In this document: positions 1,494 to 53,229 of the stretch, piece by piece
How the letters are laid out: every line of letters starts with the position of its first letter
Position numbering within the stretch: position 1 is the stretch's first letter
NCBI GenBank assembly: GCA_964563025.1
Contig: CAZLVK010000003.1
Span: forward strand, 84,061 to 148,060
Length of the DNA: 64,000 nt
Origin: an uncultured Bacteroidaceae bacterium
GTDB lineage: Bacteria > Bacillota > Clostridia > Christensenellales > CAG-917
Reading direction: 5' to 3'
Notes under the pieces: model-generated
The model's input: the letters and a program-made list of their open reading frames with translations, nothing else
Databases searched by the model: none
Told to the model about the DNA's origin: nothing
Position numbers and translations under genes: made by a program

Positions 1494-1542
1494 ACGAAAG
1501 TCTCCTTTGATAATAAAATAGCAAAACAACCTCGAAATGTCA

Positions 1543-1591
1543 AGTTATCGTTACCGATTTTGTCATTTTTGCAAAATCGGTAACGATAACT
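1543..1591. repeat. Perfect 20-bp inverted repeat with 9-nt loop
   Basis: agttatcgttaccgattttg / caaaatcggtaacgataact, read directly. It lies 50 nt upstream of the ATPase start codon. Confidence 0.9.
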
Positions 1592-1610
1592 GCCATTTTA
1601 GGCGCCACTA

Positions 1611-1702
1611 AACTTGCCGTTAGGCAAATATAACTTCGGCAAAGCCGAAATATCACTGCCGTAGGCAATATCACTTTTTGCCAACGGCAAAAAATATCAC
1701 TC
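1611..1702 (+). repeat. AATAT[A/C]AC-core hairpin array (locus 1)
   Basis: Core aatataact/aatatcact alternates with short perfect hairpins: TGCC-gtta-GGCA, TCGGC-aaa-GCCGA, GCC-gta-GGC, TTTTGCC-aac-GGCAAAA. Confidence 0.8.
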
Positions 1703-1704
1703 TC

Positions 1705-1734
1705 AAAAAAAACGATGCGAGGTTTTCGCATCGT
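1705..1734 (-). terminator. Rho-independent terminator ending the MoxR-vWA operon
   Basis: The stem acgatgcg/cgcatcgt is identical to the 222-254 terminator and the loop differs by 1 nt. On the minus strand it is followed by a run of 7-8 T. Confidence 0.85.
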
Positions 1735-1742
1735 TTTGTGAG

Positions 1743-35600: not shown

Positions 35601-37396
35601 GTATTGCCAGAGCTATCCGTAGTAATGCTTGTGCCCGTGACGGTTGCTTCGTTTCTGCAACCCGAAATGGTGAGTGTTGCGCCATCCGCAAAACCTACGA
35701 GACCGCCGACCTGAATGCCCGCGGTGACTGAACCTTTGGTGGTGCAATTCGTAATCGTGACCGTACCCGAGACGTGCCCAGCGAGCACTGCGTGGGAGTT
35801 TGTCGAAGTCCCCGAGCAAGTGCCGTTGACTGTGAGGTCGTATATATTAGCCCCGCTGCCGAGGTTTCCGAACAACCCCGAATATTTCTGATCGGGAATG
35901 ACCAACCCGCTGATTGTACAGCCGTTGCCATTTATCGACCCTTTGAATTGACTTAATTCTGTGCCTATGGGTGTGAACGACGGACCAATGAAATCCAACT
36001 CAGCCATTTGGATTGTACTTCCGCTATTACACTCTGCGGTAATATTAAAATATCGATAGCAACCTAAATTCGATAGCGTGCCGGTGAAATATTGACTGCT
36101 TGACTTATCGTATTCGTCGGGCAGTGAGGTCGTAAGCGTAACCCAATTTATATTGTCGTTTGAGCCTTTTATCGTGATGCTTTTGAATCTACGGTCATTG
36201 TATTTTGATTCTGTATCGGCACCGTTGTATAGTCGGTACTTTCGGACCGATATTGCGTAGCCGTAGTCTATCTTGACGTCCAGTTTGCCATTCGTACTCT
36301 GGCAATACTTTGTGCTTATGTCTCCGTCAAATAACTTAGCAATTTCTTCACCCGAATTACCTTCGGTTGCGACAGATAAAACCTCTGCTTCTTTCATGCT
36401 ATAGATTCTATCCGAATCATCGCTTAGCATATCGATTGTGCGCCCGCCGGCTGAATATGCGGTTTGTCCGTTAGCCGAATTAGGTTCTACGATATAATAC
36501 GCCGAAACAAAGTCTGAATCTCCGCGATTTACCTTGTCCGAGAATAAATCGAAGTCCGAACGATTGCGGAGTTTATACGGATCTGCTTCCGTTCCGCTTC
36601 CCGGCAAAGAATACGTGCCCTCTATAGAGATTGAAATATCTCTGACTTGTGCAAGGTGTCTTACCTTGTTCTGGTATGAGCCCGATTTCCTTGTAAAACT
36701 ACCGGTAAGTCTAATCTGAATACTTCCACTGCTGTCAACCGTAGCTGTAAGAGAATTTGAACCCGAACTTGTTTCTTTCTTGTCTCTGTTTCCGTACTCA
36801 CTTGCCTTAACCGAAGCGACATTCACAGACGATGAACCGGCTATTACCGAAAGAGTTGCCGTTGATGTGTGTGTCTTATTGTTAGAACTATTACTACCTG
36901 CCGTCTTTGCATAAATATAACCGGTACTGACGTTAATTTTCGTAATGGTCAAACCCTCTTCGGGAACGAGCGTCAAATATGAATATCCACTATACGAATA
37001 TTCGGCTTTATCAGCGCTGTTTGCTTCTATACCCGCGCCGTCGCCGTCCAAAATCGTTGTATATTTAATAGTAGGGCTGGATTGATCAGTGCATACGTAA
37101 GTCCAATAGCCTATTGCAGCCTCTTTTGTGCTGTCATCTGTGTTGTCCCAAGTTTCGTCGAGAGAAAAAGTCGTGCCGTCGATGGCGGAGGCAGAAATAA
37201 TGATTTTGTTGCTACTGTCGATGGAGTAGTATTTGCCAGCGGTAGCGTCGGCGGTTTGGGAACCGCTCTCATTGATTACGTCAGTGTAGAGAATTGCGGA
37301 GAGAGTGACTCCGAGGACGAGGGTGAAGAGCAAAGCAAAAACAGCGAGACGAGTCGCTTTGGTGATGAATGAAGTTTTTGCGCTTGCTGATTTCAT
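17633..37396 (-). CDS. Giant surface protein (6,587 aa): N-terminal signal-anchor, GLUG-motif beta-helix arrays, two discoidin-like domains, YDG/MBG-like repeat region
   Basis: One uninterrupted ORF. Very many GG[IVLF][VAIF]G...(N/S)C repeats typical of GLUG-motif beta-helices. Start set at ATG 37396 (MKSASAKTSF, AAGGA RBS) because the first 22 codons of the tracked ORF lie inside an intergenic repeat. Confidence 0.85.
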   Translation of the reverse strand: MKSASAKTSFITKATRLAVFALLFTLVLGVTLSAILYTDVINESGSQTADATAGKYYSIDSSNKIIISASAIDGTTFSLDETWDNTDDSTKEAAIGYWTYVCTDQSSPTIKYTTILDGDGAGIEANSADKAEYSYSGYSYLTLVPEEGLTITKINVSTGYIYAKTAGSNSSNNKTHTSTATLSVIAGSSSVNVASVKASEYGNRDKKETSSGSNSLTATVDSSGSIQIRLTGSFTRKSGSYQNKVRHLAQVRDISISIEGTYSLPGSGTEADPYKLRNRSDFDLFSDKVNRGDSDFVSAYYIVEPNSANGQTAYSAGGRTIDMLSDDSDRIYSMKEAEVLSVATEGNSGEEIAKLFDGDISTKYCQSTNGKLDVKIDYGYAISVRKYRLYNGADTESKYNDRRFKSITIKGSNDNINWVTLTTSLPDEYDKSSSQYFTGTLSNLGCYRYFNITAECNSGSTIQMAELDFIGPSFTPIGTELSQFKGSINGNGCTISGLVIPDQKYSGLFGNLGSGANIYDLTVNGTCSGTSTNSHAVLAGHVSGTVTITNCTTKGSVTAGIQVGGLVGFADGATLTISGCRNEATVTGTSITTDSSGNTRSCVGGLVGYANATSTVTINGSSNSGAITGQRGIGGLVGFSYSTLTIGNTSACENSGTINGGINVGGIVGYMAKGSVINARNTGSVIGSATYGGDKDYSIVQYDAYGYSDQTIDKINDGSTGTKYYSEEKGSMSFVMQVASGTLISGFSITNANDTASQTNRMPKRIYIWGAYTNNFKTTYPTGGGNYEYPDKEDYNTDGYKWTKIYSSEDIGLGSTNYYRKNYNLDKTYDYIYYYVYIDNGTHGSGKLQFSEFDFLYSENVGGVVGNWTLDADTTAGTLEHYGTVAGVSYVGGIVGNLNTNGKNLTGTFKVGTTYGGTNYTALDSSGNNSQEIVAHTGSFAGGIFGYTTGGAKITFENGTIVTGQIDACESIGKDTGNFVGGAVGANIGVTLDFSNCSTTPLNISIISRISRTQTIGDTTFSNVAMLGGVVGYNAGTITGKSGVDLVTIYDVKPEFFSVILKFKGTRGDYVGGIVGYNASAGTIKNCETSIQVGTSNYWENYTGGIAGYNVGTVTGAYVHSAVYGVSYVGGYFGYTTKSFSTSNNHSAAVKATGDYAGGYVGYFKSATADDTLSFSNCTNSGSVEGVNYVGGFVGYATGYSDDTNSSWATTISFNTVTNKGTISATGHSVGGVAGYLCFANFTGTVENQSAVTGSYQVGGIIGYSAVYKYTTTVDGKTTTTIKGQVIFDTSTTSVKNTGKITANGSGNYAGGIFGFSQDTKINGGTVSNEGEISAENVSYVGGIAGFLYGSTLPSTTSNTGAVTGYNYTGGIAGRIEYGTINGNNSGRIIGHDYVGGIVGEISNVQNAIASGANLRNTAIVSGNDYIGGIVGKWTLNADTTNVTLEHYGTVAGSSYVGGIAGQLDTNGKNLTGIFKVGYMYDDTYYTQDYQDDKEVWHYDNKEVVSHIGAFGGGIFGYTTGGATITFSDGTLVAGELDANEGNIAGSTRDTGVVLGGAVGANIDVTLDFSNCSTTPITSNIIGRTAQDVTINGTEYKSIGMLGGVVGYNSGTLIGKADINIISTGSIFNVVNGGYVGGVVGYNTGTIKNCRSGVTTIGGNLYRANYTGGVIGYNSSADVSGIYADSNIYGYSQIGGYIGHSAVEFTFSGLTYTKSISAWGSYVGGFVGYATQKTTFNNCTNSGTIVGTGNRVGGFIGEGTEVVFTGSNVNTGVITGGSYNTNTGERSNGDYTGGFVGNATTRGTFAHLVNTGKVTAYGNYTGGIIGSANNVAFTYCYNKSVISGYQYVGGIVGGGSGNTITNCYVEIDSSSKIEATSGSNVGGIVGTTAGTTTDSWAFYYGSVYTDHNTGTTASTGKYVLIYSNISQKVYPCTVSGSTFTDCSSWDNIKTKDINGFYIASGVKTENGNYLSLRKASNVISGTLSLGAYATPNSLENTTANSDGSVTFGKIKYKSDFAGNIDVRFAAIENITYNNGTDNVNLIYEHESKIKYYNWNGNITGYSAVFTTTSGDDVNVSTGGFKYKVEIKASSQIFGQKLNNQGVTIQPYDISSSDAVYGYSGSAYGMSKYSFLYNITSFKDNTEIGVIEYDSNTWSGYKTKFYIVSDRKARDANGYLTNVSNAYMYGSGYTYATITVTHSTPATSDGVLVDRLQKKQWTKFEGSGNFTGEVTLYYTLIDSDFGVLDGKTRDKTWGSESNPFVISNWIYLQRLSDIVNGTMQPIDSVKNYSKLTSADTNAKTIFYDGCYFVVTADIAIPDGIIFNPIGGYAIGSATSYNQGVTSATSPKSTSVSYFGGNIESDISTTTRSITIGDHLNYADGTNRHFLGLFGYVYGNSSKAGVKNIAVLGNVNSGGGDYVGGVVGYANNAVIDSCYVNASGTTAYTVGGNDYVGSIVGYLGKGSELYGNISSSSYLTVAGANYVGGFIGAIEQGAGYDAGGSTYVVGNNGDKVLKLVNYATISTNTDSEYVGGIVGAIGKDTDTSSTNITKFAPEIARNLSNISGQNYIGGIVGAVWGSNVIALENAENSDADTWSYNGTYSGDDVYTVAGTDNIGGIAGYLGAGNNLFTRVFSTATVSGGSFVGGLVGQVKGGSFVSCFVSEPGTKTVEAGTDKVNANTQYAGGLAGSADGANVSFTDCYVQGFNWSRVSASSGGVAGYASSTVKFENSWALYLADGADYTTVSPNANGKYIIADSNFATSTANIYEMAIFAGLLTSTAQYSAGKTNTSYLGKGIIPLGVTLPTPGTLSDATTKAQIVFYDASGTETATDNKFDAENDSASASMIYIYLGVDAESMSVCARQVVFNNVSDYTSETAWENAYLSLTKPIQNREKQYTADVTLTNTAGPYAGTFKISFIANYTVSGSTVTGTAVFVSRNVSFSYKNNTEVAPLIINDMDDWTSFANAVRGTDGTYTGYVKLTANIGTTSNPVTLPAGYNSTSDVNKFRFGGTFDGNGYTITVRLWASALGSNNEIGLFPQAAGATFKNLTIAGSVGVVKLDENNNPTADASASGNDIGAFVGIARGDLTFLNCKNQAYVSGGLGHNTGGLVGTAHDDNDDDGTAGPLTYNVTFVDCVNEGTVISAGNYGSKGEVSFGVGGIMGTTGSDIGSEVTFESCRNAAAVASDANVGGILGVSANECIIRNCGNTGNIIGTDDTDDTCVGGIAGIGTEAGSLNIYASYNSGQVVAQGNKAGGILGGDSEYTSASGTTCIYYCYNTGSVYTGGLTARTKGGVGVQAGGIIGTMTDVDIQYCYNVGTITANGIVYLGANTQPEARVGGIAGYSSSGAKIKMDYCYNVGLIVIGANLDTTWFNEEKNEADYGAGIIGLITGNFYNSNVTIGDHNFSLKWQVYRPNKSSGTGNKPDGGKSGTNYKNYKWQTYCEYETNYSYSGTILPSIADLTAAYFSGSSERIVPLTANRNYNSCTANDESNSTVTFGATGSAAVMNTKGTKTYGGATTVTATGVNTGIENGSLGGYIYVYGCLPQLACFALDTKNGLAMTSMGYGYDEVNEQYVLQPAGGEHNPYIIKDGIDLMSLTAITQPNPSHYDFDGEYIEFADSTNNLAGDICTYINLPTDENGLANAYKFANNGGTLTEGKSYHIYKYGAVIQRKKNYYETGTNSYTQWKNRNTYYDESSSAFTASTATAPISAVNYYPVGMFGNSADRTFKGTINGSLKTINANNIHQTDWDGTSKAEVRGLKLDRTIGHSADIYAGLFAFIEDATVANIKVSGTITGRAISSGKNVHAGLVGYAMGESVLDGLETASLTIQAINKTGNTRTNAVGGILGVAEPAKEETITIKNCIVGSANVVGDTKIIGFGPNIGGIIGVSSSRTKDEVAADASAQVIVENCNVRSAEVNSDKAVGTLVGGIVGKCDDVGSLTVTGSSVGSIGTTTTSTDNQKVKIYGSYSIGGIAGNAVANANSNMAFIDCTVYGDVLIQRIGTTNDGTFGTAIGGIVGYISNDATAFSLFRGTLGFHGTIDATLASTEKVYNIGGAVGYMGTSAVFDSIDVHIYGKINTPTSGTVENVGGFAGYGAGGTLDGTFFVAPTLSCANANYVGGFIGLNGGNTAITRTSEIYTAKEDGTSGKASTKGGAITGKYYVGGFIGGNTASGDNGLYIGAKEFLGASYGSDGDFAIIELYSSVDGKAYIGGFLGRNEGNLYGEYCQVNNYGQVGASSTGTSSNYVEIIGGIVGSNGGSAKISFGTDATFQNDGQVGNSTYKTAYQKFVGGILGANAGAFANSGTLVNTGSVYGYEYVGGAIGLLISGNISGKLANGVKADGTAFAMDSDALACTDSTTGNASVTAVSNVGGVIGAMLGGASITATTATTELYNYGKVTATADISNAGGIIGLMYGKIEGTSANKVTFANYGEVNANSFAGGIIGVVDGLVNYASFTNYSASMTFGGNTAMGGAIGLITTGYGNDYYPTTTLGESVSSTVPKYADNNQSTHITDSYFAYEPATEGNTVSVTATGTTPDTPYTINNKNYAGGLGGVIGVIDASDIDDKADWSGNSYYVNGSVYGTGVDGVGGFVGAINGAKVIIDNMLVYLSTVSGRYNVGGIVGYNGSSVTDEASIVNCFNVKGEVIGSLKNGKSTYGGIVGYAATYADDSYTYTDGSYWIKESDNNTLNKVDPDNISGTLDAAFNVAGEEDKSGYGTYLDAETTFETVTNTDTEIKTISTTKYGQLYSDDNGTAINANNKAGMSTTLYYKTTTVTTTSTYDSNESEWTTTSSTSYKYTAIIGTPANTLNFSLAYMSAHPDEPSALGYTSWAELATTYNSELVYNSALGYGSYGAAGNIVYTTGDIQHGFFYVYATDVGSIKVDIQGSELAQWNIIANTPVKGEINDSQMTYNSGAIETGHIYTTATVPDGTGYYVYFYGTTPNPGDSDAESDYSALSVHGKTSSGATGTIYFDWDTTQYEKDANGNNTKYGAVGNVLIYYKKTTMESGLVYNGQQRYAPITGMTYNTTSETVDSSAKMNQSYYYFDGTADGSVNTATDAGTYDVKANIWFVDSAGNKITIGSVDSTKNNEYKWTINKRDLVLTDNTNTTVGTYDGTYKHYVEFIVENSVYECINNDDLKNILGLTAENVTVTAVEKSSSMPTVGTNSTTAYYSYKDGESSKDVNDCGYTVLSDGAYGKAESVQTYTYTVRVYFCGAGSHSVGVTTNDSNIGKNYSLAETTLTVQVNRRKLTVTATWSEKNNDGEYEFNGGASYQGVTKITIGGNGTNEGFVGNDAQSVTFTITATAKVGSSTNDKLITVGEMTSQGTSSVYYDIQATDAATYTVTVEAPSSATGAAKNYVVSGAGTFTWTIDKYIISKSGVTLKTTTVTYDGKAHYIDTSAGEGTSSTNTEDVGKETVTFRVNVTYSGDGVSNNVAVNAGNYTATLATDGGGSGTGTVDRLTDCLSKAENRLDNYDIVFTGLTSGTATLTIEPAKINLTSWDVGSYVYLNKEQGPSVTGATVGGETISSGNISYSNGVLTISNIFDNNETVELTATNFRKKDAGDYTAKVTVISSVSGTNATGSDTVVGNYELGTGLTQAYSIAKSKIEFTYTGTVGDKVYDGTSTYSNFGTTSYRVSTTNEGDTSKSAISLSSAVYMNGSTAVSDTNAKTGVNAYTVRFTASLKDTKNYEWASGNTYTTSATAHITPKGLTVTLNDSNGRAYKSFDNNYEYASVESSGATSAKSKSQRTGKGITVSGFVANQASITVTVNFREEDRTNRAGFDEYVNGIFKDGETYKSGGAYNKMLEVALSSSDNSSYLNYYIAYVNRKSGSANVTIGDTYKNTQIYVLCNGSEVTNGSTINSVRAYTSNLTIEITKYTAKANYSNTSQSYANADNTYNTDWVEVSGTLRVPSSWNLDVEVKVANGWMKNSDGTAKEYTKYTRIVGSTTKSDLGATLSSATGKDLCITLRNQPTLIIGYFVVKDGSYQVGSAAGLLIATEYYKGNFKNETDETSGDDEKAYNFVVVPMAVPTDVELDVTTYPTTWEDFLEAYYTKYNESYDITKHSAYPTYQSIAEQYKKDTGLDLEEPAYGDYFIEDEKGNVIEKHGYYYWQPIEVEVPTYTDFVQVNDFDMIVTDLDAQIIKEAFGENWESSGYLTNVILFKVGSVVILSDSVFTGDFNGSYDGAGYTINHLTILATVTSGDTANIGMFAHLGTSDGVENVSTVKSVNLRNANIQVYDTRTSGTLNVGGIVGYNQSVNVLSDCTFHGTITVTSGATVNAGGLVGKDEASVADFTIGETTVSNTPVYGGTVIATITVIASTANVGGIVGLAYTGNTYSGVVSVSEIYVTASTANAGGILGAVNTGSATVTDGYYLQKAIYGVNNGTYVSKSNAYGTAKSYDELYNGSNTNYNNGVMGETANQNGTYDFVSDVQPQASASETADVAPRESMRLADIIDTHVLGYKLSTTNITVDTNKTATAYQKATVSELVGNANGTTDSRIGIAHQQHLSLIYAFNYMNFELKKHIVMYTGYELKSSPEAFIGSMTSNGYFVNVRTATASETTPTPFKYSDESINWITTLDSVTQG
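32110..33130 (-). repeat. Intragenic duplication, copy B (~340 codons)
   Basis: The protein segment NDYIGGIVGKWTLNADTT...TTFNNCTNSGTIVGTGNRVGGFIG is collinear with copy A. A 59-nt stretch (32675-32733) matches 34400-34458 with 1 mismatch. Confidence 0.8.
33800..34820 (-). repeat. Intragenic duplication, copy A (~340 codons)
   Basis: ENVGGVVGNWTLDADTT...LSFSNCTNSGSVEGVNYVGGFVG is collinear with copy B. They also share ccacccgtcgtatagccgaaaatacc (34546-34571 and 32831-32856). Confidence 0.8.
34825..35290 (-). other. Discoidin (F5/8 type C)-like domain 2 inside the giant protein
   Basis: TIDKINDGSTGTKYYSEEKGSMSFVMQVASGTLISGFSITNANDTASQTNRMPKRIYIWGA...LQFSEFDF resembles the carbohydrate-binding discoidin pattern. 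Confidence 0.55.
35985..36400 (-). other. Discoidin (F5/8 type C)-like domain 1 inside the giant protein
   Basis: EIAKLFDGDISTKYCQSTNGKLDVKIDYGYAISVRKYRLYNGADTESKYNDRRFKSITIKGSNDNINWVTL...IQMAELDF. Confidence 0.6.
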
Positions 37397-37417
37397 GATT
37401 TGTCCTTTATCGGTTAT

Positions 37418-37528
37418 CCTTTCCAGGAGATTGCCACGCAACTCCGTTGCTCGCAATGACAATATGAGTTTGTCATTCAGAGGAGTACGTTAGTACGACG
37501 AAGGAATCTCCCGGAAGGGAAACGGCAG
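37418..37528. repeat. Composite hairpin repeat (module Y 37418-37466, module X 37472-37528) inside the giant-gene leader
   Basis: Same modules as 1-111 but in the order Y then X. Stem positions co-vary between copies (attGc/gCaat vs attCc/gGaat; gtAc/gTac vs gtGc/gCac; cCc/gGg vs cGc/gCg). Confidence 0.8.
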
Positions 37529-38080: not shown

Positions 38081-39874
38081 ATGACAAAACGCAATGCAAA
38101 ACTCAATCTCACTTCCAAAGTGGCACGCGCCACCGTCTTTGCGCTACTTTTTGTCCTCGTCCTCGGCATATGCTTAGTAACCGCTTTTGACGTAGACCTC
38201 GGCGGTTCCGACGTCGCCTATGCCTCAAAAAATGATAATGTCAGTTCTTCAACTTACGGCTCGATTTCATCCGTCAATTCAAACAATCAAATTACCCTCA
38301 ATGACATTGGTAATGATTTTGCTTACAGTTGGTACACTTATACTAGTTTTGGGTGGGGCGCCGGCTTAACAGGAAATGACTCAAAAGACGGCAAGGTGTC
38401 CATTGAACTTACTTGTGACGGTAGCAATAACTATTCAAATTTGACTTATAGCAAACGTTATAATTTTTCAAGCACAGTTCTCTCATACGTCCAACAGGGA
38501 TATTTTGTTTCAGTTAGTATTTCGGCATCTACAAGTGGTGGCGAAGGACAAGATTACGGCATAAAAGCTATTACGACTACGAGCGGAACTTATAATTCCG
38601 TTCAATCAACACAAGGTCATATTGATGTGAGCGCTGCTGGAATCAATACGGCAAAAACAGCAACGCTTTCTACTTCTACAACAGGAATTGAGATTGAATT
38701 TGCAGGTGCCGACAAAAACGATCCAACATTTGTATTTCAAAACGTAGTCTTAACCTTTAATTACGCTCAATACACCGTAGCTTATAATGCAAACGTACCG
38801 GCCGGCGTTTCACTTTCCGCAACGGGTACGACGAGTAATTCGACGCATACAATTTTTACAGCAAAAAATCTCACCAAAAACGGTTACTCTTTGGTCGGTT
38901 ATAAATTCTTGGGTTGGACGAAGACTCAATATACTACGGCACAGAGTTCTCTTCCGAGCGGTGGTTACACCGACCAACAGTCTGTTACCAACCTCACCAC
39001 GACGAACGGCGCGACCGTGACTTTGTATGCGGTGTGGCAACCGTTGTTCGGCTTGATATACCACGAGAACGGCGACAATGACGATACCACCTCTGTCACC
39101 GTCGAGCAGGGCACTTCAATTACACTACTTACGGCGTCAGGCTTGCCGTCAAACTTCACGAAAGCGGGGCACTATTTCGCAGGGTGGGCGGGCTCAGCCT
39201 CGTCAAAGACGAATATAGGTTCTTCGATTACGGCGGGCGCGAACGGCACGCAACGTCATATCTACGCCATTTGGTTGCCCATCTCGTACACTATCACATT
39301 CAACAAGAACGACAGTAGCGCATCGGGCAGTATGTCAAATATGATCGGCACCTATTCGGGTGCGGTAACTCTCACTGCAAACGCTTTCACAAAACAGGAC
39401 TCTTTCTTCAAAAATTGGTATCTTTCCACAAGTTCCGCAACGCTTGCGGATAAAGCAACTATTGCGGCAAGCACCTTTGCGGGATATTTGACCGCCGCGC
39501 AGTCAAGCATTGATACGTCGAGCGTTACACTCTCACTCACCGCACAATGGACTACCGAAACGTTTGAGTTCGGCAAGTCGGCTAAGGGCACGGGGAAATG
39601 GGGCTCCGCAAATAATCCCTATATCATCCGCACGACGACGCATTGGAACAACCTCGCAACTATCATCAATAATAATTGCCCTACGTCGGGGAGCAACGTG
39701 GTCGGTTCAATCGTCGGTTCCTCACTTGCAAGTTACTCCAATCCTATCGCGACCGCAAACAGCGGCTACTACGGCGCAACGTTCCTCATCGAAAACAACT
39801 TGACTTTCAGCGGAACCTACACCACGGTAGGAAACGTAAACTATCAATTCAAAGGGTCGTTTGTTCTGTCATAG
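38081..39874 (+). CDS. Truncated paralog of the giant adhesin: shared N-terminal anchor and domain, Listeria-Bacteroides (Flg_new) repeats, ends at the start of a beta-helix module (597 aa)
   Basis: N-terminus ARATVFALLFVLVLGICL parallels the giant protein. GYKFLGW / GHYFAGW repeat signatures. The ORF stops at YQFKGSFVLS*, inside the F-x-G-x-F-D-G-N-G motif, 20 nt before repeat module Y. It could equally be called a pseudogene. Confidence 0.6.
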   Translation: MTKRNAKLNLTSKVARATVFALLFVLVLGICLVTAFDVDLGGSDVAYASKNDNVSSSTYGSISSVNSNNQITLNDIGNDFAYSWYTYTSFGWGAGLTGNDSKDGKVSIELTCDGSNNYSNLTYSKRYNFSSTVLSYVQQGYFVSVSISASTSGGEGQDYGIKAITTTSGTYNSVQSTQGHIDVSAAGINTAKTATLSTSTTGIEIEFAGADKNDPTFVFQNVVLTFNYAQYTVAYNANVPAGVSLSATGTTSNSTHTIFTAKNLTKNGYSLVGYKFLGWTKTQYTTAQSSLPSGGYTDQQSVTNLTTTNGATVTLYAVWQPLFGLIYHENGDNDDTTSVTVEQGTSITLLTASGLPSNFTKAGHYFAGWAGSASSKTNIGSSITAGANGTQRHIYAIWLPISYTITFNKNDSSASGSMSNMIGTYSGAVTLTANAFTKQDSFFKNWYLSTSSATLADKATIAASTFAGYLTAAQSSIDTSSVTLSLTAQWTTETFEFGKSAKGTGKWGSANNPYIIRTTTHWNNLATIINNNCPTSGSNVVGSIVGSSLASYSNPIATANSGYYGATFLIENNLTFSGTYTTVGNVNYQFKGSFVLS

Positions 39875-39893: not shown

Positions 39894-39937
39894 CTGTCAT
39901 TACGAGCAACGAAGTTGCGTGGCAATCTCCGGGAACG
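39894..39937. repeat. Module Y (inverted copy)
   Basis: ctgtcattacgagcaacgaagttgcgtggcaatctccgggaacgg matches 51615-51663 and the reverse complement of 37418-37466. Confidence 0.8.
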
Positions 39938-39956
39938 GCACCGCTGAACCTCCATA

Positions 39957-40030
39957 GGCACTATCACTCCGACAAAGTCGGAATATAACTTTGCGCAAGC
40001 AAAATATCACTTCTCGAAGAGAAATATCAC
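39957..40030 (+). repeat. AATAT[A/C]AC-core hairpin array (locus 2)
   Basis: Cores separated by CCGAC-aaa-GTCGG, TTGC-gcaa-GCAA and TCTC-gaa-GAGA. The array overlaps the stop codon of the TrpB2 ORF. Confidence 0.8.
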
Positions 40031-41370
40031 CGCGACGGCAATGTCACGGTGCCGGCGCACCGTGACATTGCGCCGCTTAACGCCCTCTCGTAGCCTGCAA
40101 GGTCGAAGTAGCCCGTTCCCGTGAGTCCGAATAGGATAACCTTCTTAACGCCCGTTTCTCGACATTTGACGGCTTCGTCCACCGCAATCTTTATGGCGTG
40201 TGCGCTTTCGGGCGCAGGCAATATCCCCTCTACTCTTGCAAACTTAATCGCAGTGTCGAACACTTCGTTCTGTCCCACCCTTCTCACTTCGTCGAGATAG
40301 CCGTCGTGATACAACTTGCTGACGACCGGACTCATTCCGTGATACCTAAGCCCGCCCGCATGGCTTGACGGCGGAATAAATTCGCAACCGAGGGTATACA
40401 TTTTCGCCATCGGCGTAATCTTCCCCGTATCGCAATAGTCGTATCTATATTCCCCTTTGCTCATACTCGGACAACTCTCGGGCTCCACGGCGATGAAATG
40501 CGGATTTGCCGTTCCTTTCAACTTGTCCCGCACGAACGGCGCGATAAGTCCCGCCAAATTACTCCCTCCGCCGGCGCAACCTATGACGACGTCGGGATAC
40601 GTATCGTGTTTCTCCATTGCGATTTTGCACTCCAAACCTATCACTGATTGGTGCAAAGCGACTTGATTTAGCACACTTCCAAGCACGTATCGTGTACTTT
40701 TCGTCGTTGTCGCAAGTTCGACCGCTTCCGAAATCGCGGTGCCCAGAGAACCGCTGTTGTTCGGATTTTCGGCAAGCATTTTGCGTCCGACCGCCGTCGT
40801 ATCGCTCGGAGACGGTATCACGTTTGCGCCGTATACGCGCATAAGGCTTTTGCGTTGCGGTTTGAGTTCATAACTGCACCGCACCATAAACACCGTGAGG
40901 TCGAGCCCGAAATATCCGCACGCCATACTTAGCGCCGTTCCCCATTGTCCCGCGCCCGTTTCCGTCGTCACGCCTTTGAGACCTTGTTCCTTTGCGTAGT
41001 ACGCTTGCGCTATCGCGCTGTTCAGTTTGTGGCTTCCGCTCGTGTTGTTGCCCTCGAATTTGTAATATATCTCCGCAGGCGTAGCGAGTGCCTTTTCAAG
41101 GCAGTACGCACGCACAAGCGGGGACGGACGATACATTTTGTAAAAGTCGCGTATCCCTTTCGGAATTTCGATATAGGCGTCCTCGTCGTTAAGTTCCTGT
41201 TTCGCAAGTTCGGTGCAAAATATCCTTTCAAGGTCCGAGAGCGTCACCGCTTTGCCTGTCGCGGGATTTATCAGCGGTTCACACTTGTCCTTCATATCCG
41301 CCCGCACGTTATACCACTCCTTAGGCATTTCGTTTTCGCTGAGATAAATTTTGTACGGTATTTCTTTCAT
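40027..41370 (-). CDS. trpB: TrpB-like PLP-dependent enzyme (TrpB2 class tryptophan synthase beta)
   Basis: The long N-terminal extension MKEIPYKIYLSENEMPKEWYN is typical of TrpB2. PLP-lysine context NTSGSHKLN. GCAGGGSNLAG loop. The last ~15 codons run through a repeat hairpin. Confidence 0.85.
   Translation of the reverse strand: MKEIPYKIYLSENEMPKEWYNVRADMKDKCEPLINPATGKAVTLSDLERIFCTELAKQELNDEDAYIEIPKGIRDFYKMYRPSPLVRAYCLEKALATPAEIYYKFEGNNTSGSHKLNSAIAQAYYAKEQGLKGVTTETGAGQWGTALSMACGYFGLDLTVFMVRCSYELKPQRKSLMRVYGANVIPSPSDTTAVGRKMLAENPNNSGSLGTAISEAVELATTTKSTRYVLGSVLNQVALHQSVIGLECKIAMEKHDTYPDVVIGCAGGGSNLAGLIAPFVRDKLKGTANPHFIAVEPESCPSMSKGEYRYDYCDTGKITPMAKMYTLGCEFIPPSSHAGGLRYHGMSPVVSKLYHDGYLDEVRRVGQNEVFDTAIKFARVEGILPAPESAHAIKIAVDEAVKCRETGVKKVILFGLTGTGYFDLAGYERALSGAMSRCAGTVTLPSR
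40038..40071. repeat. Perfect 15-bp inverted repeat (4-nt loop) inside the last codons of the TrpB2 ORF
   Basis: gcaatgtcacggtgc cggc gcaccgtgacattgc, read directly. Confidence 0.9.
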
Positions 41371-41431: not shown

Positions 41432-41696
41432 AAAAAATCCGCGTGAAACAGATTCCTGCTTCACGCGGACAAAACTCATCGTCTTGCGGTGCCACCGCGC
41501 TTGACGTAACGTCACCGTCACGACCTCTCAAAACTGCAATCACAGTCCGTCCTTTTACGCAGACGTGCGTGCCCGACTACTCGTTTCCTTTCGCCGCGCC
41601 CCTCGGGGGCCCATAACTTCGACTCGTTTGCTATCCGCATTCCACCGCCGCAGACTCTCTTTAGCGCGTTTGTCTCGTCTCTTCCCTTCATCGGTT
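41432..41696 (-). promoter_or_regulatory. T-box riboswitch leader (candidate Trp specifier) upstream of trpB2
   Basis: On the minus strand: GAUGA (K-turn), AGAGAG bulge, GGUGGAA distal loop, T-box sequence GCGGUGGCACCGCAAG, then the terminator ccgcgtgaa/ttcacgcgg plus a U-run. UGG (plus-strand cca at 41611-41613) sits where the specifier is expected. Confidence 0.7.
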
Positions 41697-41702
41697 TATT
41701 TC

Positions 41703-45390: not shown

Positions 45391-45413
45391 AAACCAACCT
45401 CTGAATAAACACA

Positions 45414-45441
45414 AAATCCCGACGTCGGTCGGGATTTTTTA
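45414..45441 (+). terminator. Rho-independent terminator after guaA
   Basis: Stem atcccgac/gtcgggat, loop gtcg, T6 run. Confidence 0.85.
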
Positions 45442-45453
45442 TATGTTTTTTCG

Positions 45454-45526
45454 CATATAACTTCTCAAAGAGAAATATAACTGCGTAGCAATATCAGTTT
45501 GTGGCAATGTCAAAAAATATCACTCA
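45454..45526 (+). repeat. AATAT[A/C]AC-core hairpin array (locus 3, partly degenerate)
   Basis: catataact TCTC-aaa-GAGA aatataact GC-gta-GC aatatcag ... aaaatatcact. Confidence 0.7.
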
Positions 45527-45555
45527 AAAAGAGCACTCCGAAGAGTGCCCTTTTT
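45526..45555 (-). terminator. Rho-independent terminator after the LRR lipoprotein gene (bidirectional shape)
   Basis: Stem gcactc/gagtgc, loop cgaa, flanked by A5 and T5. Confidence 0.65.
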
Positions 45556-51594: not shown

Positions 51595-51663
51595 GGGCGG
51601 GACACACCCGCACCCGATTGTCATTGCGAGCAACGGAGTTGCGTGGCAATCTCCTTGAAAGGA
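51595..51663. repeat. GC hairpin plus module Y (inverted copy)
   Basis: gggcgggacacacccgcaccc followed by cgattgtcattgcgagcaacggagttgcgtggcaatctcc. This is the reverse complement of the 69-129 arrangement. Confidence 0.8.
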
Positions 51664-51665
51664 AC

Positions 51666-51756
51666 CGCTAATCTTGCCGTAGGCAAATATAACTGCTCGT
51701 TAGGGCAATATCACTCCGACTTGTCGGAATATCACTTCTCGAAGAGAAATATAACT
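51666..51756 (+). repeat. AATAT[A/C]AC-core hairpin array (locus 4)
   Basis: TGCC-gta-GGCA aatataact GCTC-gtta-GGGC aatatcact CCGAC-tt-GTCGG aatatcact TCTC-gaa-GAGA aatataact. Confidence 0.8.
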
Positions 51757-51757
51757 C

Positions 51758-51789
51758 AAAAAAAAGCACCGCGGATACGGTGCTTTTTT
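51758..51789 (-). terminator. Rho-independent terminator ending the glycine-cleavage operon
   Basis: Stem gcaccg/cggtgc, with A8 and T6 flanks. About 15 nt past the gcvPB stop. Confidence 0.85.
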
Positions 51790-51804
51790 CGTGCGTTAAT
51801 TCTT

Positions 51805-53229
51805 TTAGCCTCTCAGTATCGGCTGTCTTGCGGCGCGGACCTCGTCGGGACGAGAGATGACCGCATTGTGCGGTGCGGTATGCAACGCTTCCGGATTATC
51901 GAATGCTTGTTTATGCAGTCCGAGGAGCAACTCCGCGACTTCGTCGAGGGTGTCTTTGCTTTCGGTTTCGGTGGGTTCAAACATAAGCGCTTCATGGACG
52001 ATGAGAGGGAAATACATCGTAGGCGGGTGTATTCCGCCGTCTATCATCGCTTTTGCAATATCCATTGCGCTGACGCCTGTTTCCTCTTTGAGTTTTTCGA
52101 GGGACACGACGAATTCGTGCATACAACGTCTACCCTTTTCGGTGGGATACGCATCCTCGATTTTCGCTTTGAGGTAGTTTGCGTTGAGGACCGCCGTTTC
52201 GGACGCTTCTTTTAAGCCTTCTCCGCCGAGAGTAACGATATAGGCAAGTGCCTTTGCGTATACGCCGAAGTTGCCGTAGAAAGCAGTGACCTTGCCGATG
52301 CTTTCCTCGCTATAATCGAAGTCGTAACCGTTCTCGGTCTTGACGACGCTCGGGTTGGGAAGATACGGCACGAGGGCTTTCTTGCAACCGACGGGACCGC
52401 TACCGGGACCGCCACCGCCGTGAGGAGTGGAGAACGTCTTGTGAAGATTGAGGTGCACGACGTCGAAGCCCATATCGCCGGGACGAACGATACCCATAAC
52501 GGCGTTGAGGTTTGCGCCGTCGTAGTAGAGCAATCCGCCCGCCTCGTGGACGATTTTGTCGATGGCTTCGATATTCTTTTCAAAAAGACCGAGAGTAGTA
52601 GGATTGGTGAGCATGAGCGCGGCGGTATCTTCACCGACGACCTTTCTGAGTTCGTCGAGATCAACGCCTTTTTCGTCGTTGGACTTCACTGCGACAATCT
52701 CGAAGCCCGCCATAGCGGCGGAGGCGGGATTGGTGCCGTGTGCGCTGTCGGGAACAATGATTTTGGTGCGCTTGTTATCCCCTCTTTGCTCGTGGTATTT
52801 CTTGATGAGTTGAAGTCCCGTGTACTCGCCGTGTGCACCCGCACAAGGTTGGAGAGTAACAGCATCCATACCCGTGATTTCGCACAAATCGGCACTTAAA
52901 ACCTCGATAAGTTCAAGTGAACCCTGTATATCTGCGATTTTCTGACGAGGATGAACGGCGGTGAAGCCTTCGAGGCTTGCCACTTCTTCGTTGATTTTAG
53001 GGTTGTATTTCATCGTGCAAGAACCGAGAGGATAGAACCCGTCGTCAACGCCGAATGCACGCTTTGAAAGCGCGGTATAATGACGAACGAGATCGACTTC
53101 CGCGACCGACGGAAGGACGGGTGCGGACTCTCTTTTAAGGCTTGCATCGAACTTGTATTCGGGCACGCCGAGAGGTGCGAACGTTACCGCTCTTTTGCCG
53201 TCTTTGGAAATTTCAAACAAAGTTTTCAC
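51805..53229 (-). CDS. gcvPB: Glycine dehydrogenase (aminomethyl-transferring) subunit 2
   Basis: [11 protein letters not shown], the PLP-lysine region [18 protein letters not shown], and a length typical of GcvPB. Start/stop overlap with gcvPA. Confidence 0.92.

What the first reader, a model, noticed from the sequence alone, without database searches (positions are those of the whole stretch)
51666..51756. Unusual interspersed repeat family: constant AATAT[A/C]AC core alternating with variable perfect hairpins
Seen:
- At four loci (1611-1702, 39957-40030, 45454-45526, 51666-51756) an 8-9-nt core (aatatcact / aatataact) alternates with short hairpins whose stems all differ.
- The hairpins are TCGGC-aaa-GCCGA, GCC-gta-GGC, TTTTGCC-aac-GGCAAAA, CCGAC-aaa-GTCGG, CCGAC-tt-GTCGG, TTGC-gcaa-GCAA, TCTC-gaa-GAGA, TCTC-aaa-GAGA, TGCC-gta-GGCA and GCTC-gtta-GGGC.
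- There are 2-5 units per locus, and cores are about 18-26 nt apart.
- All four arrays have the core in the same orientation.
- Each is followed on its high-coordinate side by a terminator or long hairpin and then by the 3' end of a minus-strand gene.
- Two arrays are preceded by module Y.

The conserved-linker, variable-stem logic is the reverse of a normal repeat, where the stem is conserved. I do not recognise it as a described element.

Inference: this is either a REP/BIME-like element mobilised as single-stranded DNA, which would explain the uniform orientation, or a 3'-UTR RNA-stability or processing array.
Basis: partly seen in the sequence, partly recalled or inferred. Interest (0 to 1): 0.6.

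Follow-up and report, generated by a model that had tools for sequence, protein, structure and literature searches.

The report
Gut-1-type hairpin-and-linker repeat arrays
The four "constant linker, variable hairpin" arrays are real, but they are copies of an already catalogued and still unexplained gut-bacterial repeat (Rfam "Gut-1 RNA"); in related genomes this repeat forms the two inverted arms next to a small four-helix-bundle gene, which gives both orphans a testable partner.

Summary
AATATMAC occurs 23 times in the window against 4.3 expected. The draft genome (1.97 Mb) carries about 35 such arrays of 2-10 units, and 61 of 62 distinct spacers are hairpins.

The element is described. Three of the four window arrays match Rfam RF01706 (Gut-1 RNA, Weinberg 2010) at 46.0, 39.7 and 39.5 bits, on the opposite strand. 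Same-class arrays elsewhere in the genome pass the 50-bit threshold, and the published seed alignment holds GUGAUAU-linker members with the same flanks.

New context:
- In other gut Clostridia the unit is bipartite: two inward-facing arms whose linkers are reverse complements, usually just after a terminator or tRNA gene.
- All 18 PF05635 (23S-rRNA-IVS/Avd-like) genes I examined in relatives are preceded or flanked by paired repeat arms (17 of the hairpin-and-linker kind); each has its own linker, and linker class follows protein clade.
- Loops are strongly strand-specific (GNA/GNNA) relative to the linker.
- A RAYT-type transposase does not co-occur with the arrays.

The window copies are gene-less single arms, two of them fused to a second repeat module (Y), and they are absent or different at the same sites in sister species.

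The parts
1614..1701 (+). Array 1: five hairpins (the first is TTGCCGTTAGGCAA) and four AATATMACT linkers at 1627, 1649, 1667 and 1693. It is preceded by GGCGCCACTAAAC (1600-1613), which resembles the end of module Y.
   Evidence: RF01706 hit at 1623-1702 on the minus strand, 39.5 bits, E 3e-4. At the orthologous site G008 carries an arm of another linker class (ATGATATA) and G004 carries none.
1705..1737 (.). Two-way intrinsic terminator (A8, stem CGATGCGA/TCGCATCG, T4 on the + strand and T8 on the - strand). It ends the minus-strand 735-aa gene (1743-3950) and abuts the last linker.
   Evidence: Terminator-like hairpins sit just 3' of arrays in 26 of 115 cases in other genomes, against 5 of 115 on the other side.
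39895..39949 (+). Module Y (TGTCATTACGAGCAACGAAGTTGCGTGGCAATCTCCGGGAACGGCACCGCTGAAC). It forms two small hairpins that show compensatory changes between copies. Elsewhere in the genome it occurs as inverted pairs around arrays.
   Evidence: 70 GTCATTNYGAG pattern matches in the genome, about 16 of them chance hits inside ORFs. At the orthologous site G004 has Y without an array and G008 has neither.
39950..40030 (+). Array 3: one degenerate unit (CTCCATAGGC + ACTATCACT), then TCCGACAAAGTCGGA, TTTGCGCAAGCAAA and TTCTCGAAGAGAA with linkers at 39982, 40003 and 40023.
   Evidence: RF01706 hit at 39978-40049 on the minus strand, 46.0 bits, E 7e-6.
40032..40077 (.). A 21-bp near-perfect hairpin after array 3. 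It is translated as the extended C-terminus of TrpB2.
   Evidence: TrpB2 ends ...ALSGAMSRCAGTVTLPSR* here, against ...ALNGNL* in G004 and G008.
45454..45524 (+). Array 2: four units, two of them with degenerate cores (CATATAACT, AATATCAGT). It lies between two convergent terminators (45413-45440 for guaA and 45526-45555 for the LRR gene).
   Evidence: No RF01706 hit at E<=5. The guaA terminator is conserved in G004 and G008, but the array is present only in this genome.
51595..51615 (+). Module V (GGGCGGGACACACCCGCACCC), another recurrent repeat module found upstream of Y in several copies.
51619..51673 (+). Module Y (TGTCATTGCGAGCAACGGAGTTGCGTGGCAATCTCCTTGAAAGGAACCGCTAATC).
51674..51756 (+). 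Array 4, the finding's own interval. Hairpins are TTGCCGTAGGCAA, TGCTCGTTAGGGCA, TCCGACTTGTCGGA and TTCTCGAAGAGAA, with linkers at 51686, 51707, 51728 and 51748.
   Evidence: RF01706 hit at 51703-51793 on the minus strand, 39.7 bits, E 2.8e-4. Absent from the gcvPB 3' region of G004 and G008.
51758..51789 (.). Two-way terminator (A8, GCACCGCGG/CGGTGC, T6) for gcvPB (51805-53229, minus strand).
   Evidence: GCAC-type terminators are generic in this genome: 20 copies, of which 4 lie next to arrays.

Best explanation
The arrays are gene-less, single-arm copies of the Gut-1-type hairpin-and-linker repeat (Rfam RF01706).

In its complete form this repeat has two arms of 3-5 units. A clade-specific 7-9-nt linker is separated by short hairpins of free sequence, and the linkers of the two arms are reverse complements. 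The complete form sits beside or around a small PF05635 gene (23S-rRNA-intervening-sequence protein, Avd-like four-helix bundle), typically just downstream of a terminator or a tRNA gene.

Proposed mechanism (inferred):
- In a single-stranded form (RNA or DNA) each GNA/GNRA-capped hairpin folds on itself.
- Successive linkers are then displayed side by side at constant spacing, whatever the hairpin length.
- They serve as the reading units for an oligomeric partner, most plausibly the cognate PF05635 protein.

In this genus the AATATMACT class has multiplied to about 35 copies. It sits mostly next to terminators and is partly embedded between inverted copies of a second module (Y). It turns over between species, and no cognate-clade PF05635 gene is in the 71%-complete assembly.

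Shown: family identity, hairpin constraint, strand-specific loops, patchy distribution and site turnover, physical and phyletic link to PF05635, and linker class following protein clade.
Inferred: protein binding, the single-stranded form, and how copies spread.

My odds: Gut-1-type repeat 0.9; arms of a PF05635-linked element family 0.65; linker read by the PF05635 protein 0.35.
For: Family identity:
- RF01706 matches three of the four window arrays (46.0, 39.7 and 39.5 bits).
- Same-class arrays elsewhere in the genome are above the 50-bit threshold (C4:13173 at 64.0; C2:92819 at 56.4).
- Weinberg's seed alignment has GUGAUAU-linker members with an upstream terminator or tRNA, a CAGUUAUAUU start, a UGCC..GGCA-GUUU end and an inverted AAUAUCAC array downstream.

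Hairpins and strand:
- 61 of 62 distinct spacers are hairpins.
- On the AATATMACT strand, loops are GNA in 52 of 87 triloops (2 TNC) and GNNA in 55 of 75 tetraloops (0 TNNC). This holds in both arms.

Two-arm structure:
- RF01706 hits come as inward-facing pairs (+ then -). In L149 the pair scores 59.2 and 52.0 bits, and the pairs flank the PF05635 gene in G006:C5 and G054:C3.

Link to PF05635:
- All 18 PF05635 genes I inspected have upstream or flanking arms, 17 of the hairpin-and-linker kind and one of tandem heptamers. There are about 11 different linkers, always reverse-complementary between arms.
- An exact 7-mer test scores 10 of 18 against 5 of 1400 control genes, p = 1e-17.
- Seven AATATMACT arrays in other taxa are followed by a PF05635 gene.
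- In a tree of 23 such proteins, linker classes need the minimum of 12 changes (0 of 200 shuffles as low). The AATATMACT class from at least five taxa groups together, while same-genome paralogues with other linkers fall elsewhere.
- Across 61 related genomes: Gut-1 and PF05635 together in 10, Gut-1 only in 7, PF05635 only in 3, neither in 41 (Fisher p = 4e-5).

Turnover and spread:
- Arrays are absent from, or of another linker class at, orthologous sites in G004 and G008.
- A near-identical ATGATATA arm sits at non-orthologous sites in G004 and G008.
- At least 119 stretches in named gut Clostridia MAGs carry the exact linker.
Against: - No PF05635 gene of the AATATMACT clade is in this assembly. 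Its two PF05635 genes have GTGAAG and RTGAAAT linkers.
- Seven related genomes have Gut-1-type arrays and no PF05635 at all, including G004 at 99% completeness. Arrays can therefore persist without the gene.
- Most arrays are gene-less (about 88 of 95).
- No transposase, target duplication or excision footprint was found.
- The variable linker base does not covary significantly between arms: 60 of 86 complementary against about 52 expected.
- Stem mismatches show no wobble excess: 20 G.T against 15 A.C. The RNA form is therefore not supported by that test.
- The AATATMACT clade has only moderate tree support (63/65).
- The phyletic association is not corrected for phylogeny.
- PF05635 has no demonstrated biochemical activity outside DGR Avd (my knowledge).
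- There are no expression data.
Confidence: 0.6

Rival explanations
1. Stand-alone small non-coding RNA genes, as Rfam annotates Gut-1. Each array would be transcribed on one strand as a structured sRNA, for example a protein sponge that presents repeated single-stranded linkers, and would end at the adjacent terminator.
For: - Weinberg 2010 rated Gut-1 'RNA: Y' on covariation.
- Read on the AATATMACT strand, 10 of 33 arrays in this genome and 26 of 115 elsewhere end at a hairpin plus T-run.
- GNRA tetraloops (GCAA, GTAA, GAAA) are common on that strand.
- On the other strand, A-U and G.U pairs extend every stem and lower the folding energy.
Against: - RF01706 hits occur as inward-facing pairs on opposite strands. 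One transcript therefore cannot carry both arms in the modelled orientation.
- Unit number varies from 2 to 10.
- No conserved promoter lies upstream of the window copies.
- There is no G.U excess in stems.
- Copies are gained and lost between sister species.
Confidence: 0.15
2. Host-useful terminator accessories. Runs of stable hairpins placed after terminators would act as back-up terminators or insulators, or as barriers to 3' exonucleases, much as REP/BIME stabilise upstream mRNA.
For: - In 23 of 35 arrays an opposite-strand gene end lies just downstream, and 14 of 35 lie between convergent genes.
- Arrays abut the T-run of terminators of genes and tRNAs.
- One element is conserved at the same locus in two Acutalibacteraceae species, L152 and L173.
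Against: - The arrays lie after the U-tract, so they would be transcribed only by read-through.
- Close relatives do without them at the same sites.
- This reading does not explain the conserved linker, the inverted second arm, or the link to PF05635.
Confidence: 0.12
3. REP/BIME-like repeats mobilised as single-stranded DNA by a RAYT/IS200-type Y1 HUH transposase.
For: - The logic of linear motif plus hairpin resembles REP with its GTAG.
- C-(GNA)-G triloops are the classic very stable DNA mini-hairpins (my knowledge).
- Orientation is biased with respect to GC skew: 27 of 35.
- One weak PF01797-like ORF is present at C1:134945-135277.
Against: - PF01797 is absent from G002, G006 and G054 (17, 28 and 83 matches of the three-linker AATATMACT pattern). 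It is present in many genomes without AATATMACT arrays, including G004.
- The AATATMACT strand lies on the C-rich strand. That strand is the leading-strand template, not the exposed lagging-strand template, if the usual Firmicutes skew holds.
- REP stems are conserved; here they are not.
Confidence: 0.04
4. Arrays of double-stranded DNA binding sites (iteron- or centromere-like) for a sequence-specific DNA-binding protein.
For: - The repeated 9-mer is conserved across bacterial families.
- The inverted arrangement of the two arms resembles transposon ends or parC-type sites.
Against: - Linker spacing varies from 16 to 27 bp with no helical phasing.
- The spacers are constrained to be palindromes with strand-specific loops. 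Binding to B-form DNA does not require that.
Confidence: 0.05

Closest known systems
Gut-1 RNA motif (Rfam RF01706; Weinberg et al. 2010, Genome Biol 11:R31, PMC2864571)
   Same: - Same architecture: short hairpins of free sequence joined by an RUGAnAU linker.
- Same habitat (gut Clostridia) and same flanks (terminator or tRNA upstream).
- Covariance-model hits on three of the four window arrays.
- The published seed alignment contains the GUGAUAU linker seen here.
   Different: - The Rfam model is a fixed three-hairpin RNA on one strand. Here unit number is 2-10.
- The window copies score below the gathering threshold.
- Loops argue for the opposite strand, and the motif is one arm of a two-armed inverted element.
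- The paper says only that the motif occurs in human-gut sequences. No function or gene partner is given.
ORF-bearing 23S rRNA intervening sequences (Coxiella burnetii IVS with S23p; Warrier et al. 2016, PMC4990558; Leptospira, from memory)
   Same: A PF05635-family gene is enclosed by inverted repeat arms that can form a stem. The element is regarded as selfish and horizontally acquired.
   Different: - Those sit inside 23S rRNA helix 45 and are excised by RNase III.
- Here the elements are intergenic, their arms are interrupted by local hairpins, and the window copies carry no gene.
REP/BIME elements with RAYT transposases (Enterobacteria, Pseudomonas)
   Same: High-copy extragenic hairpin repeats near gene 3' ends, in modular mosaics with other motifs, with copy number that varies between relatives.
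   Different: - In REP the palindrome is conserved. Here the linker is conserved and the palindromes vary.
- No RAYT co-occurs with the arrays.
Pneumococcal BOX elements (boxA-boxB(n)-boxC), from memory
   Same: A modular intergenic repeat with terminal modules around a variable number of tandem internal units. Compare Y-array-Y' copies such as C9:183-366.
   Different: boxB units are 45-nt copies of conserved sequence, not hairpins of free sequence. There is no sequence relationship.
Intergenic heptamer repeat arrays (GGGNATC in Xanthomonas and Nostoc; Rehm et al. 2015, PMC4692102)
   Same: Short (7-nt) repeat units with a preferred number of about four. They lie between co-directional genes, within about 50 bp of stop codons, and are mostly transcribed.
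   Different: Those are contiguous G-rich repeats proposed to form quadruplexes. They have no interleaved hairpins and no named gene partner.

Membership tests
Rfam RF01706 Gut-1 | Arrays of this linker class reach the family's gathering score (50 bits). | tested here: met
   AATATMACT arrays in the same genome score 64.0 (C4:13173-13244), 56.4, 52.1 and 50.1 (C2:92701-93236). In other taxa, L173 scores 63.0 and L149 scores 59.2 and 52.0.
Rfam RF01706 Gut-1 | Each of the four window arrays individually reaches 50 bits. | tested here: not met
   Scores are 46.0 (39978-40049), 39.7 (51703-51793) and 39.5 (1623-1702), with E-values of 7e-6 to 3e-4. The 45454 array gives no hit. These are sub-threshold copies of a class that does pass.
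Rfam RF01706 Gut-1 | Three or more short hairpins with covarying stems joined by an RUGAnAU linker; terminator or tRNA just upstream in model orientation. | tested here: met
   The linker is AGUKAUAUU on the model strand. 61 of 62 spacers are hairpins. Flanks are identical to those of seed members such as BAAZ01025322.
PF05635-armed (IVS-like) cassette | A PF05635 gene lies between or directly beside the arms. | tested here: not met
   No PF05635 gene is in the window. The genome's two copies (C3:152528, C13:607) have other linkers, and tblastn finds no AATATMACT-clade gene. The window arrays are therefore orphan arms, not cassettes.
PF05635-armed (IVS-like) cassette | Two inverted arms whose repeat units are reverse complements. 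| tested here: not met
   The window arrays are single arms, all reading AATATMACT on the + strand. Where the second arm would be there is module Y or unrelated sequence.
PF05635-armed (IVS-like) cassette | The same linker class serves as arms of PF05635 genes elsewhere. | tested here: met
   Seen at G006:C5, G054:C3 and G054:C52b and at L145, L158, L169, L171, L212, L214 and L220. The proteins form one group in the tree.
REP/BIME with RAYT | Conserved imperfect palindrome with a short conserved 5' motif. | tested here: not met
   The palindromes vary (62 distinct spacers) and the linker is constant.
REP/BIME with RAYT | A Y1 HUH (PF01797) gene co-occurs with the repeats. | tested here: not met
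   PF01797 is absent in G002, G006 and G054 and present in G004, which lacks AATATMACT arrays, and in many genomes without any arrays.
MITE (terminal inverted repeats plus target-site duplication) | Terminal inverted repeats. | tested here: inconclusive
   Some copies in this genome are bounded by Y and inverted Y (C9:183-366, C2:61068-61249, C4:20905-21079). The window copies have one Y (two loci) or none.
MITE (terminal inverted repeats plus target-site duplication) | Target-site duplication and a matching autonomous transposase element. | not tested
   The flanks are themselves other repeat modules (U, V, W), so boundaries could not be set. No transposase with Y-type ends was sought.

The most novel reading that the evidence does not exclude
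Gut-1-type arrays and PF05635 four-helix-bundle proteins would form one two-component system. An Avd-like oligomer (PDB 2RLD has five chains) would read a clade-specific 7-9-nt linker that is displayed at constant pitch between free-sequence, GNA/GNRA-capped hairpins in single-stranded nucleic acid. Gene plus arms would travel together as a cassette that settles behind terminators and tRNA genes. In this genus one arm class has escaped its gene and spread, partly as the passenger of a second inverted-repeat module (Y). The Rfam entry would then describe one arm of this element, possibly on the wrong strand.
Probability: 0.35. Interest if true: 0.75.

Novelty: new member of a known kind. Interest (0 to 1): 0.45.

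Why it matters
Gut-1 has sat in Rfam since 2010 as an orphan 'RNA' known only from gut metagenomes. PF05635 (the 23S-rRNA-IVS/Avd-like family) is a widespread protein family with no assigned function outside diversity-generating retroelements.

Three results turn the two orphans into one concrete binding experiment:
- Gut-1 is one arm of a two-armed element.
- The element sits beside PF05635 genes.
- Linker sequence tracks protein clade.

The result also warns that the Rfam model (a fixed three hairpins on one strand) misdescribes a variable-length, two-fold symmetric repeat.

For this window alone the result is modest. The arrays are further, sub-threshold, gene-less copies of a known repeat.

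Tried and rejected
1. RAYT/IS200 hypothesis. A PF01797 search over 61 genomes shows no co-occurrence with arrays.

2. Ladder model, in which linkers of the two arms pair.
   - The minimum-free-energy fold of L149 does zip the linkers together.
   - The variable linker base does not covary between arms: 60 of 86 against about 52 expected. In L150 all four pairs mismatch.
   - The model is left open, not adopted.

3. Choosing the strand by wobble pairs. Counts are 20 G.T against 15 A.C, which is uninformative.

4. The terminator as part of the element. GCACTC-type terminators are generic in the genome: 20 copies, only 4 beside arrays.

5. Clean empty-versus-filled alignment at the gcvPB site. 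The intergenic DNA is too diverged between species.

6. Strain-level variants.
   - Exact-protein look-ups found nothing for gcvPB.
   - They found one 1-kb contig that breaks inside the repeats.

7. Transcription evidence.

8. Rfam at gathering threshold on the window finds nothing. The match appears only in E-value mode or on other parts of the genome.

Full report
**1. Observation**

- AATATMAC occurs 23 times in the window against 4.29 +/- 1.96 in dinucleotide-preserving shuffles. No shuffle reached 23, and 15 of the hits lie in the four arrays.
- The window is C3:84061-148060 of a 146-contig, 1.97-Mb, 46% G+C draft genome that is 71% complete. That genome carries about 35 arrays of 2-10 units.
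- The unit is a hairpin that always opens with T and closes with A, followed by ATATMAC.
- 61 of 62 distinct spacers fold this way, with 306 of 320 stem positions Watson-Crick.
- The stems are not all different. About a dozen stem types recur in shuffled order, and the loop varies more than the stem.

**2. Identity**

Rfam at gathering threshold finds nothing in the window. In E-value mode three arrays match RF01706, 'Gut-1 RNA', on the minus strand:
- 39978-40049: 46.0 bits
- 51703-51793: 39.7 bits
- 1623-1702: 39.5 bits

Arrays of the same linker class elsewhere in the genome pass the 50-bit threshold: 64.0, 56.4, 52.1 and 50.1 bits.

[quoted passage not shown] I found no follow-up literature. 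Its seed alignment contains GUGAUAU-linker members with these features:
- an upstream terminator or tRNA
- a CAGUUAUAUU start
- a UGCC..GGCA-GUUU end
- an inverted AAUAUCAC array downstream

That is the architecture seen here. The element is therefore described, though unexplained.

**3. Distribution**

- The exact pattern of three AATATMACT linkers occurs in 9 of 61 related genomes, patchily. Within the genus that is this genome and four of its eleven sister genomes. One genome of another family (G054) has 83 matches.
- It also occurs in at least 119 stretches of named gut Clostridia MAGs from people, ruminants and rabbits: Acutalibacteraceae, Oscillospiraceae, Ruminococcus, Christensenellaceae and a few Lachnospiraceae.
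- RF01706 itself hits 17 of the 61 relatives.

**4. Full anatomy**

In those MAGs the complete element reads, in order:
1. gene or tRNA
2. two-way terminator
3. C-AGTTATATT, then hairpin-AGTGATATT repeated 3-4 times
4. a short centre (AGTTT..GGCGAATAT)
5. AATATCACT-hairpin repeated 3-4 times
6. the next promoter

The two arms carry reverse-complementary linkers but unrelated hairpins. Accordingly, RF01706 hits come as inward-facing pairs on opposite strands. In L149 the pair scores 59.2 and 52.0 bits. A single-strand sRNA model cannot account for that.

The window arrays correspond to the terminator-proximal arm only. Where the second arm would be there is module Y or other sequence.

Orthologous elements in two Acutalibacteraceae species (L152, L173) keep the linkers and one arm but have swapped two hairpins of the other arm.

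**5. Strand**

Relative to the AATATMACT reading:
- Triloops are GNA in 52 of 87 cases (2 TNC).
- Tetraloops are GNNA in 55 of 75 cases (0 TNNC).
- In this genome the counts are 13 of 40 and 9 of 12, with no TNC or TNNC.

This asymmetry follows the linker in both arms, so the element has two-fold symmetry. The favoured strand is opposite to the Rfam model.

Two observations pull the other way or are neutral:
- The Rfam strand gains an A-U and a G.U pair per hairpin and folds 2.5-9 kcal/mol better.
- Stem mismatches show no wobble excess: 20 G.T against 15 A.C.

C-(GNA)-G is the classic stable DNA mini-hairpin, and GNRA is the classic RNA tetraloop (my knowledge). RNA versus ssDNA therefore stays open.

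**6. Gene partner**

- Seven AATATMACT arrays in other taxa are followed directly by a roughly 118-aa gene. It matches PF05635 at 99 bits. Its closest solved relative is PDB 2RLD, which has five chains.
- Among the 61 relatives PF05635 occurs in 13. Gut-1 and PF05635 occur together in 10, Gut-1 alone in 7, PF05635 alone in 3, neither in 41 (Fisher p = 4e-5, not corrected for phylogeny).
- I inspected 18 PF05635 loci. Seventeen have hairpin-and-linker arms upstream or on both sides of the gene, and one has tandem-heptamer arms.
- The linker differs from locus to locus, but the two arms always stay reverse complements. The pairs seen were:
  - AGTGATATT / AATATCACT
  - GATGAAATC / GATTTCATC
  - ATGATATA / TATATCAT
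  - ACACAGTTT / AAACTGTGT
  - GCGATAT / ATATCGC
  - GTATGTAATC / GATTYCATAC
  - ATGAATTG / CAATTCAT
  - GTGAAG / CTTCAC
  - RTGAAAT / ATTTCACT
  - AATTATGT / ACATAAYA
  - GTGATGTG / ACATCRCT
- An exact 7-mer test scores 10 of 18 against 5 of 1400 control genes (p = 1e-17).
- In a tree of 23 of these proteins the linker classes need the minimum possible number of changes (12; 0 of 200 shuffles as low). The AATATMACT class from at least five taxa groups together (support 63/65), while paralogues from the same genomes with other linkers fall elsewhere.

Gene and arms are thus inherited together. This genome has no AATATMACT-clade gene.

**7. Turnover**

Sister species G004 and G008 are syntenic over the window, with 82-86% nucleotide identity in genes.

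| Site | This genome | G004 | G008 |
|---|---|---|---|
| guaA 3' end | gene terminator conserved; array present | terminator conserved; no array | terminator conserved; no array |
| TrpB2 3' end | Y plus array | Y only | a V-like module only |
| lipoprotein 3' end | AGTKATATT arm | none | arm of the ATGATATA class at the same spot |
| gcvPB 3' end | V + Y + array | absent | absent |

A near-identical ATGATATA arm sits at non-orthologous sites in G004 (C3:95137) and G008 (C9:56877).

Sites just behind terminators are therefore repeatedly occupied and vacated. No transposase, target duplication or footprint was identified. PF01797 (RAYT-type) does not track the arrays.

**8. Position statistics**

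- In this genome 23 of 35 arrays face the 3' end of an opposite-strand gene, and 14 lie between convergent genes.
- The AATATMACT strand is the C-rich strand in 27 of 35 arrays (p = 0.002). This is confounded with gene orientation.
- In other genomes a terminator-like hairpin follows the array in 26 of 115 cases, against 5 of 115 on the other side.
- A convergent tRNA gene lies within 120 nt in 15 of 115 cases.

**9. Interpretation**

The window arrays are sub-threshold, gene-less, single-arm members of the Gut-1 family.

The most economical mechanism is inferred, not shown:
- The hairpins are spacers that fold locally in a single strand.
- They present the linkers at a fixed pitch to an oligomeric reader.

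Rivals and their odds are listed separately.

Earlier notes from this scan reached the same Gut-1/PF05635 link in other genomes. I treated them as leads and re-derived the link here from this genome's own relatives.

Noticed in passing
window 41462-41700 (-): A T-box leader match (RF00230, 73.3 bits, below the 93-bit gathering score, E 6e-14) lies directly upstream of the TrpB2-like PALP gene (40027-41370). It is probably a tryptophan T-box.
   Followed up: no
window 40027-40079 (-): The TrpB2-like ORF ends ...ALSGAMSRCAGTVTLPSR*, whereas G004 and G008 end ...ALNGNL*. The 12-residue-longer tail is encoded by the 21-bp hairpin next to array 3, and the stop lies inside the last linker. Repeat material has remodelled the gene's 3' end.
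   Followed up: partly
window 1541-1592: A perfect 19-bp inverted repeat (AGTTATCGTTACCGATTTT ... AAAATCGGTAACGATAACT) lies between array 1 and the start of the AAA_14/DUF4143 ATPase gene (264-1529, -). It could be an operator or a terminator.
   Followed up: no
whole genome; e.g. window 39895, 51619; C3:83998, C3:153064, C5:126108, C18:2622: The genome is a mosaic of further repeat modules.
- The pattern GTCATTNYGAG gives 70 matches, about 16 of them chance hits inside ORFs. The real heads (GTCATTSCGAG) are often arranged head-to-head around a 26-nt spacer (AAAAGCAAGTGCAAAC...).
- Modules V (GGGCGGGACACCCGCACCC), U (GAGTGAGTGCTTGTAC..CTCATAC) and Z (TTCCTCTTGGGGACGGGG) recur.
- A roughly 100-nt module (GGGGTATCCCCACCGTGAAAATAAG...CACGGAAGGGGAAAGAGG) occurs in at least 7 copies and has no Rfam match.
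   Followed up: partly
G000:C3:151724-152833 (outside the window): The tmRNA gene (RF00023, 140 bits) is followed by a GTGAAG/CTTCAC hairpin-linker element and then a PF05635 gene. This mirrors the tRNA-adjacent placement seen elsewhere. A run of N interrupts the element in the copy held.
   Followed up: partly
G000:C1:134945-135277 (-): A 264-aa ORF has a weak Y1_Tnp match (PF01797, 36 bits). It is conserved at similar size in many relatives whether or not they carry arrays. It is about twice the length of IS200 TnpA (from memory), and its role is unknown.
   Followed up: no
window 17633-37462 (-): A 6609-aa ORF (a giant adhesin-like protein) faces a 597-aa paralogue with Listeria-Bacteroides repeats (38081-39874, +). 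The paralogue stops 20 nt before module Y.
   Followed up: no
PMC2864571 supplement, seed contig BAAZ01000130.1: Four Gut-1 seed members lie at exact 240-nt offsets on one metagenome contig. The element can therefore also occur as a higher-order tandem repeat.
   Followed up: no
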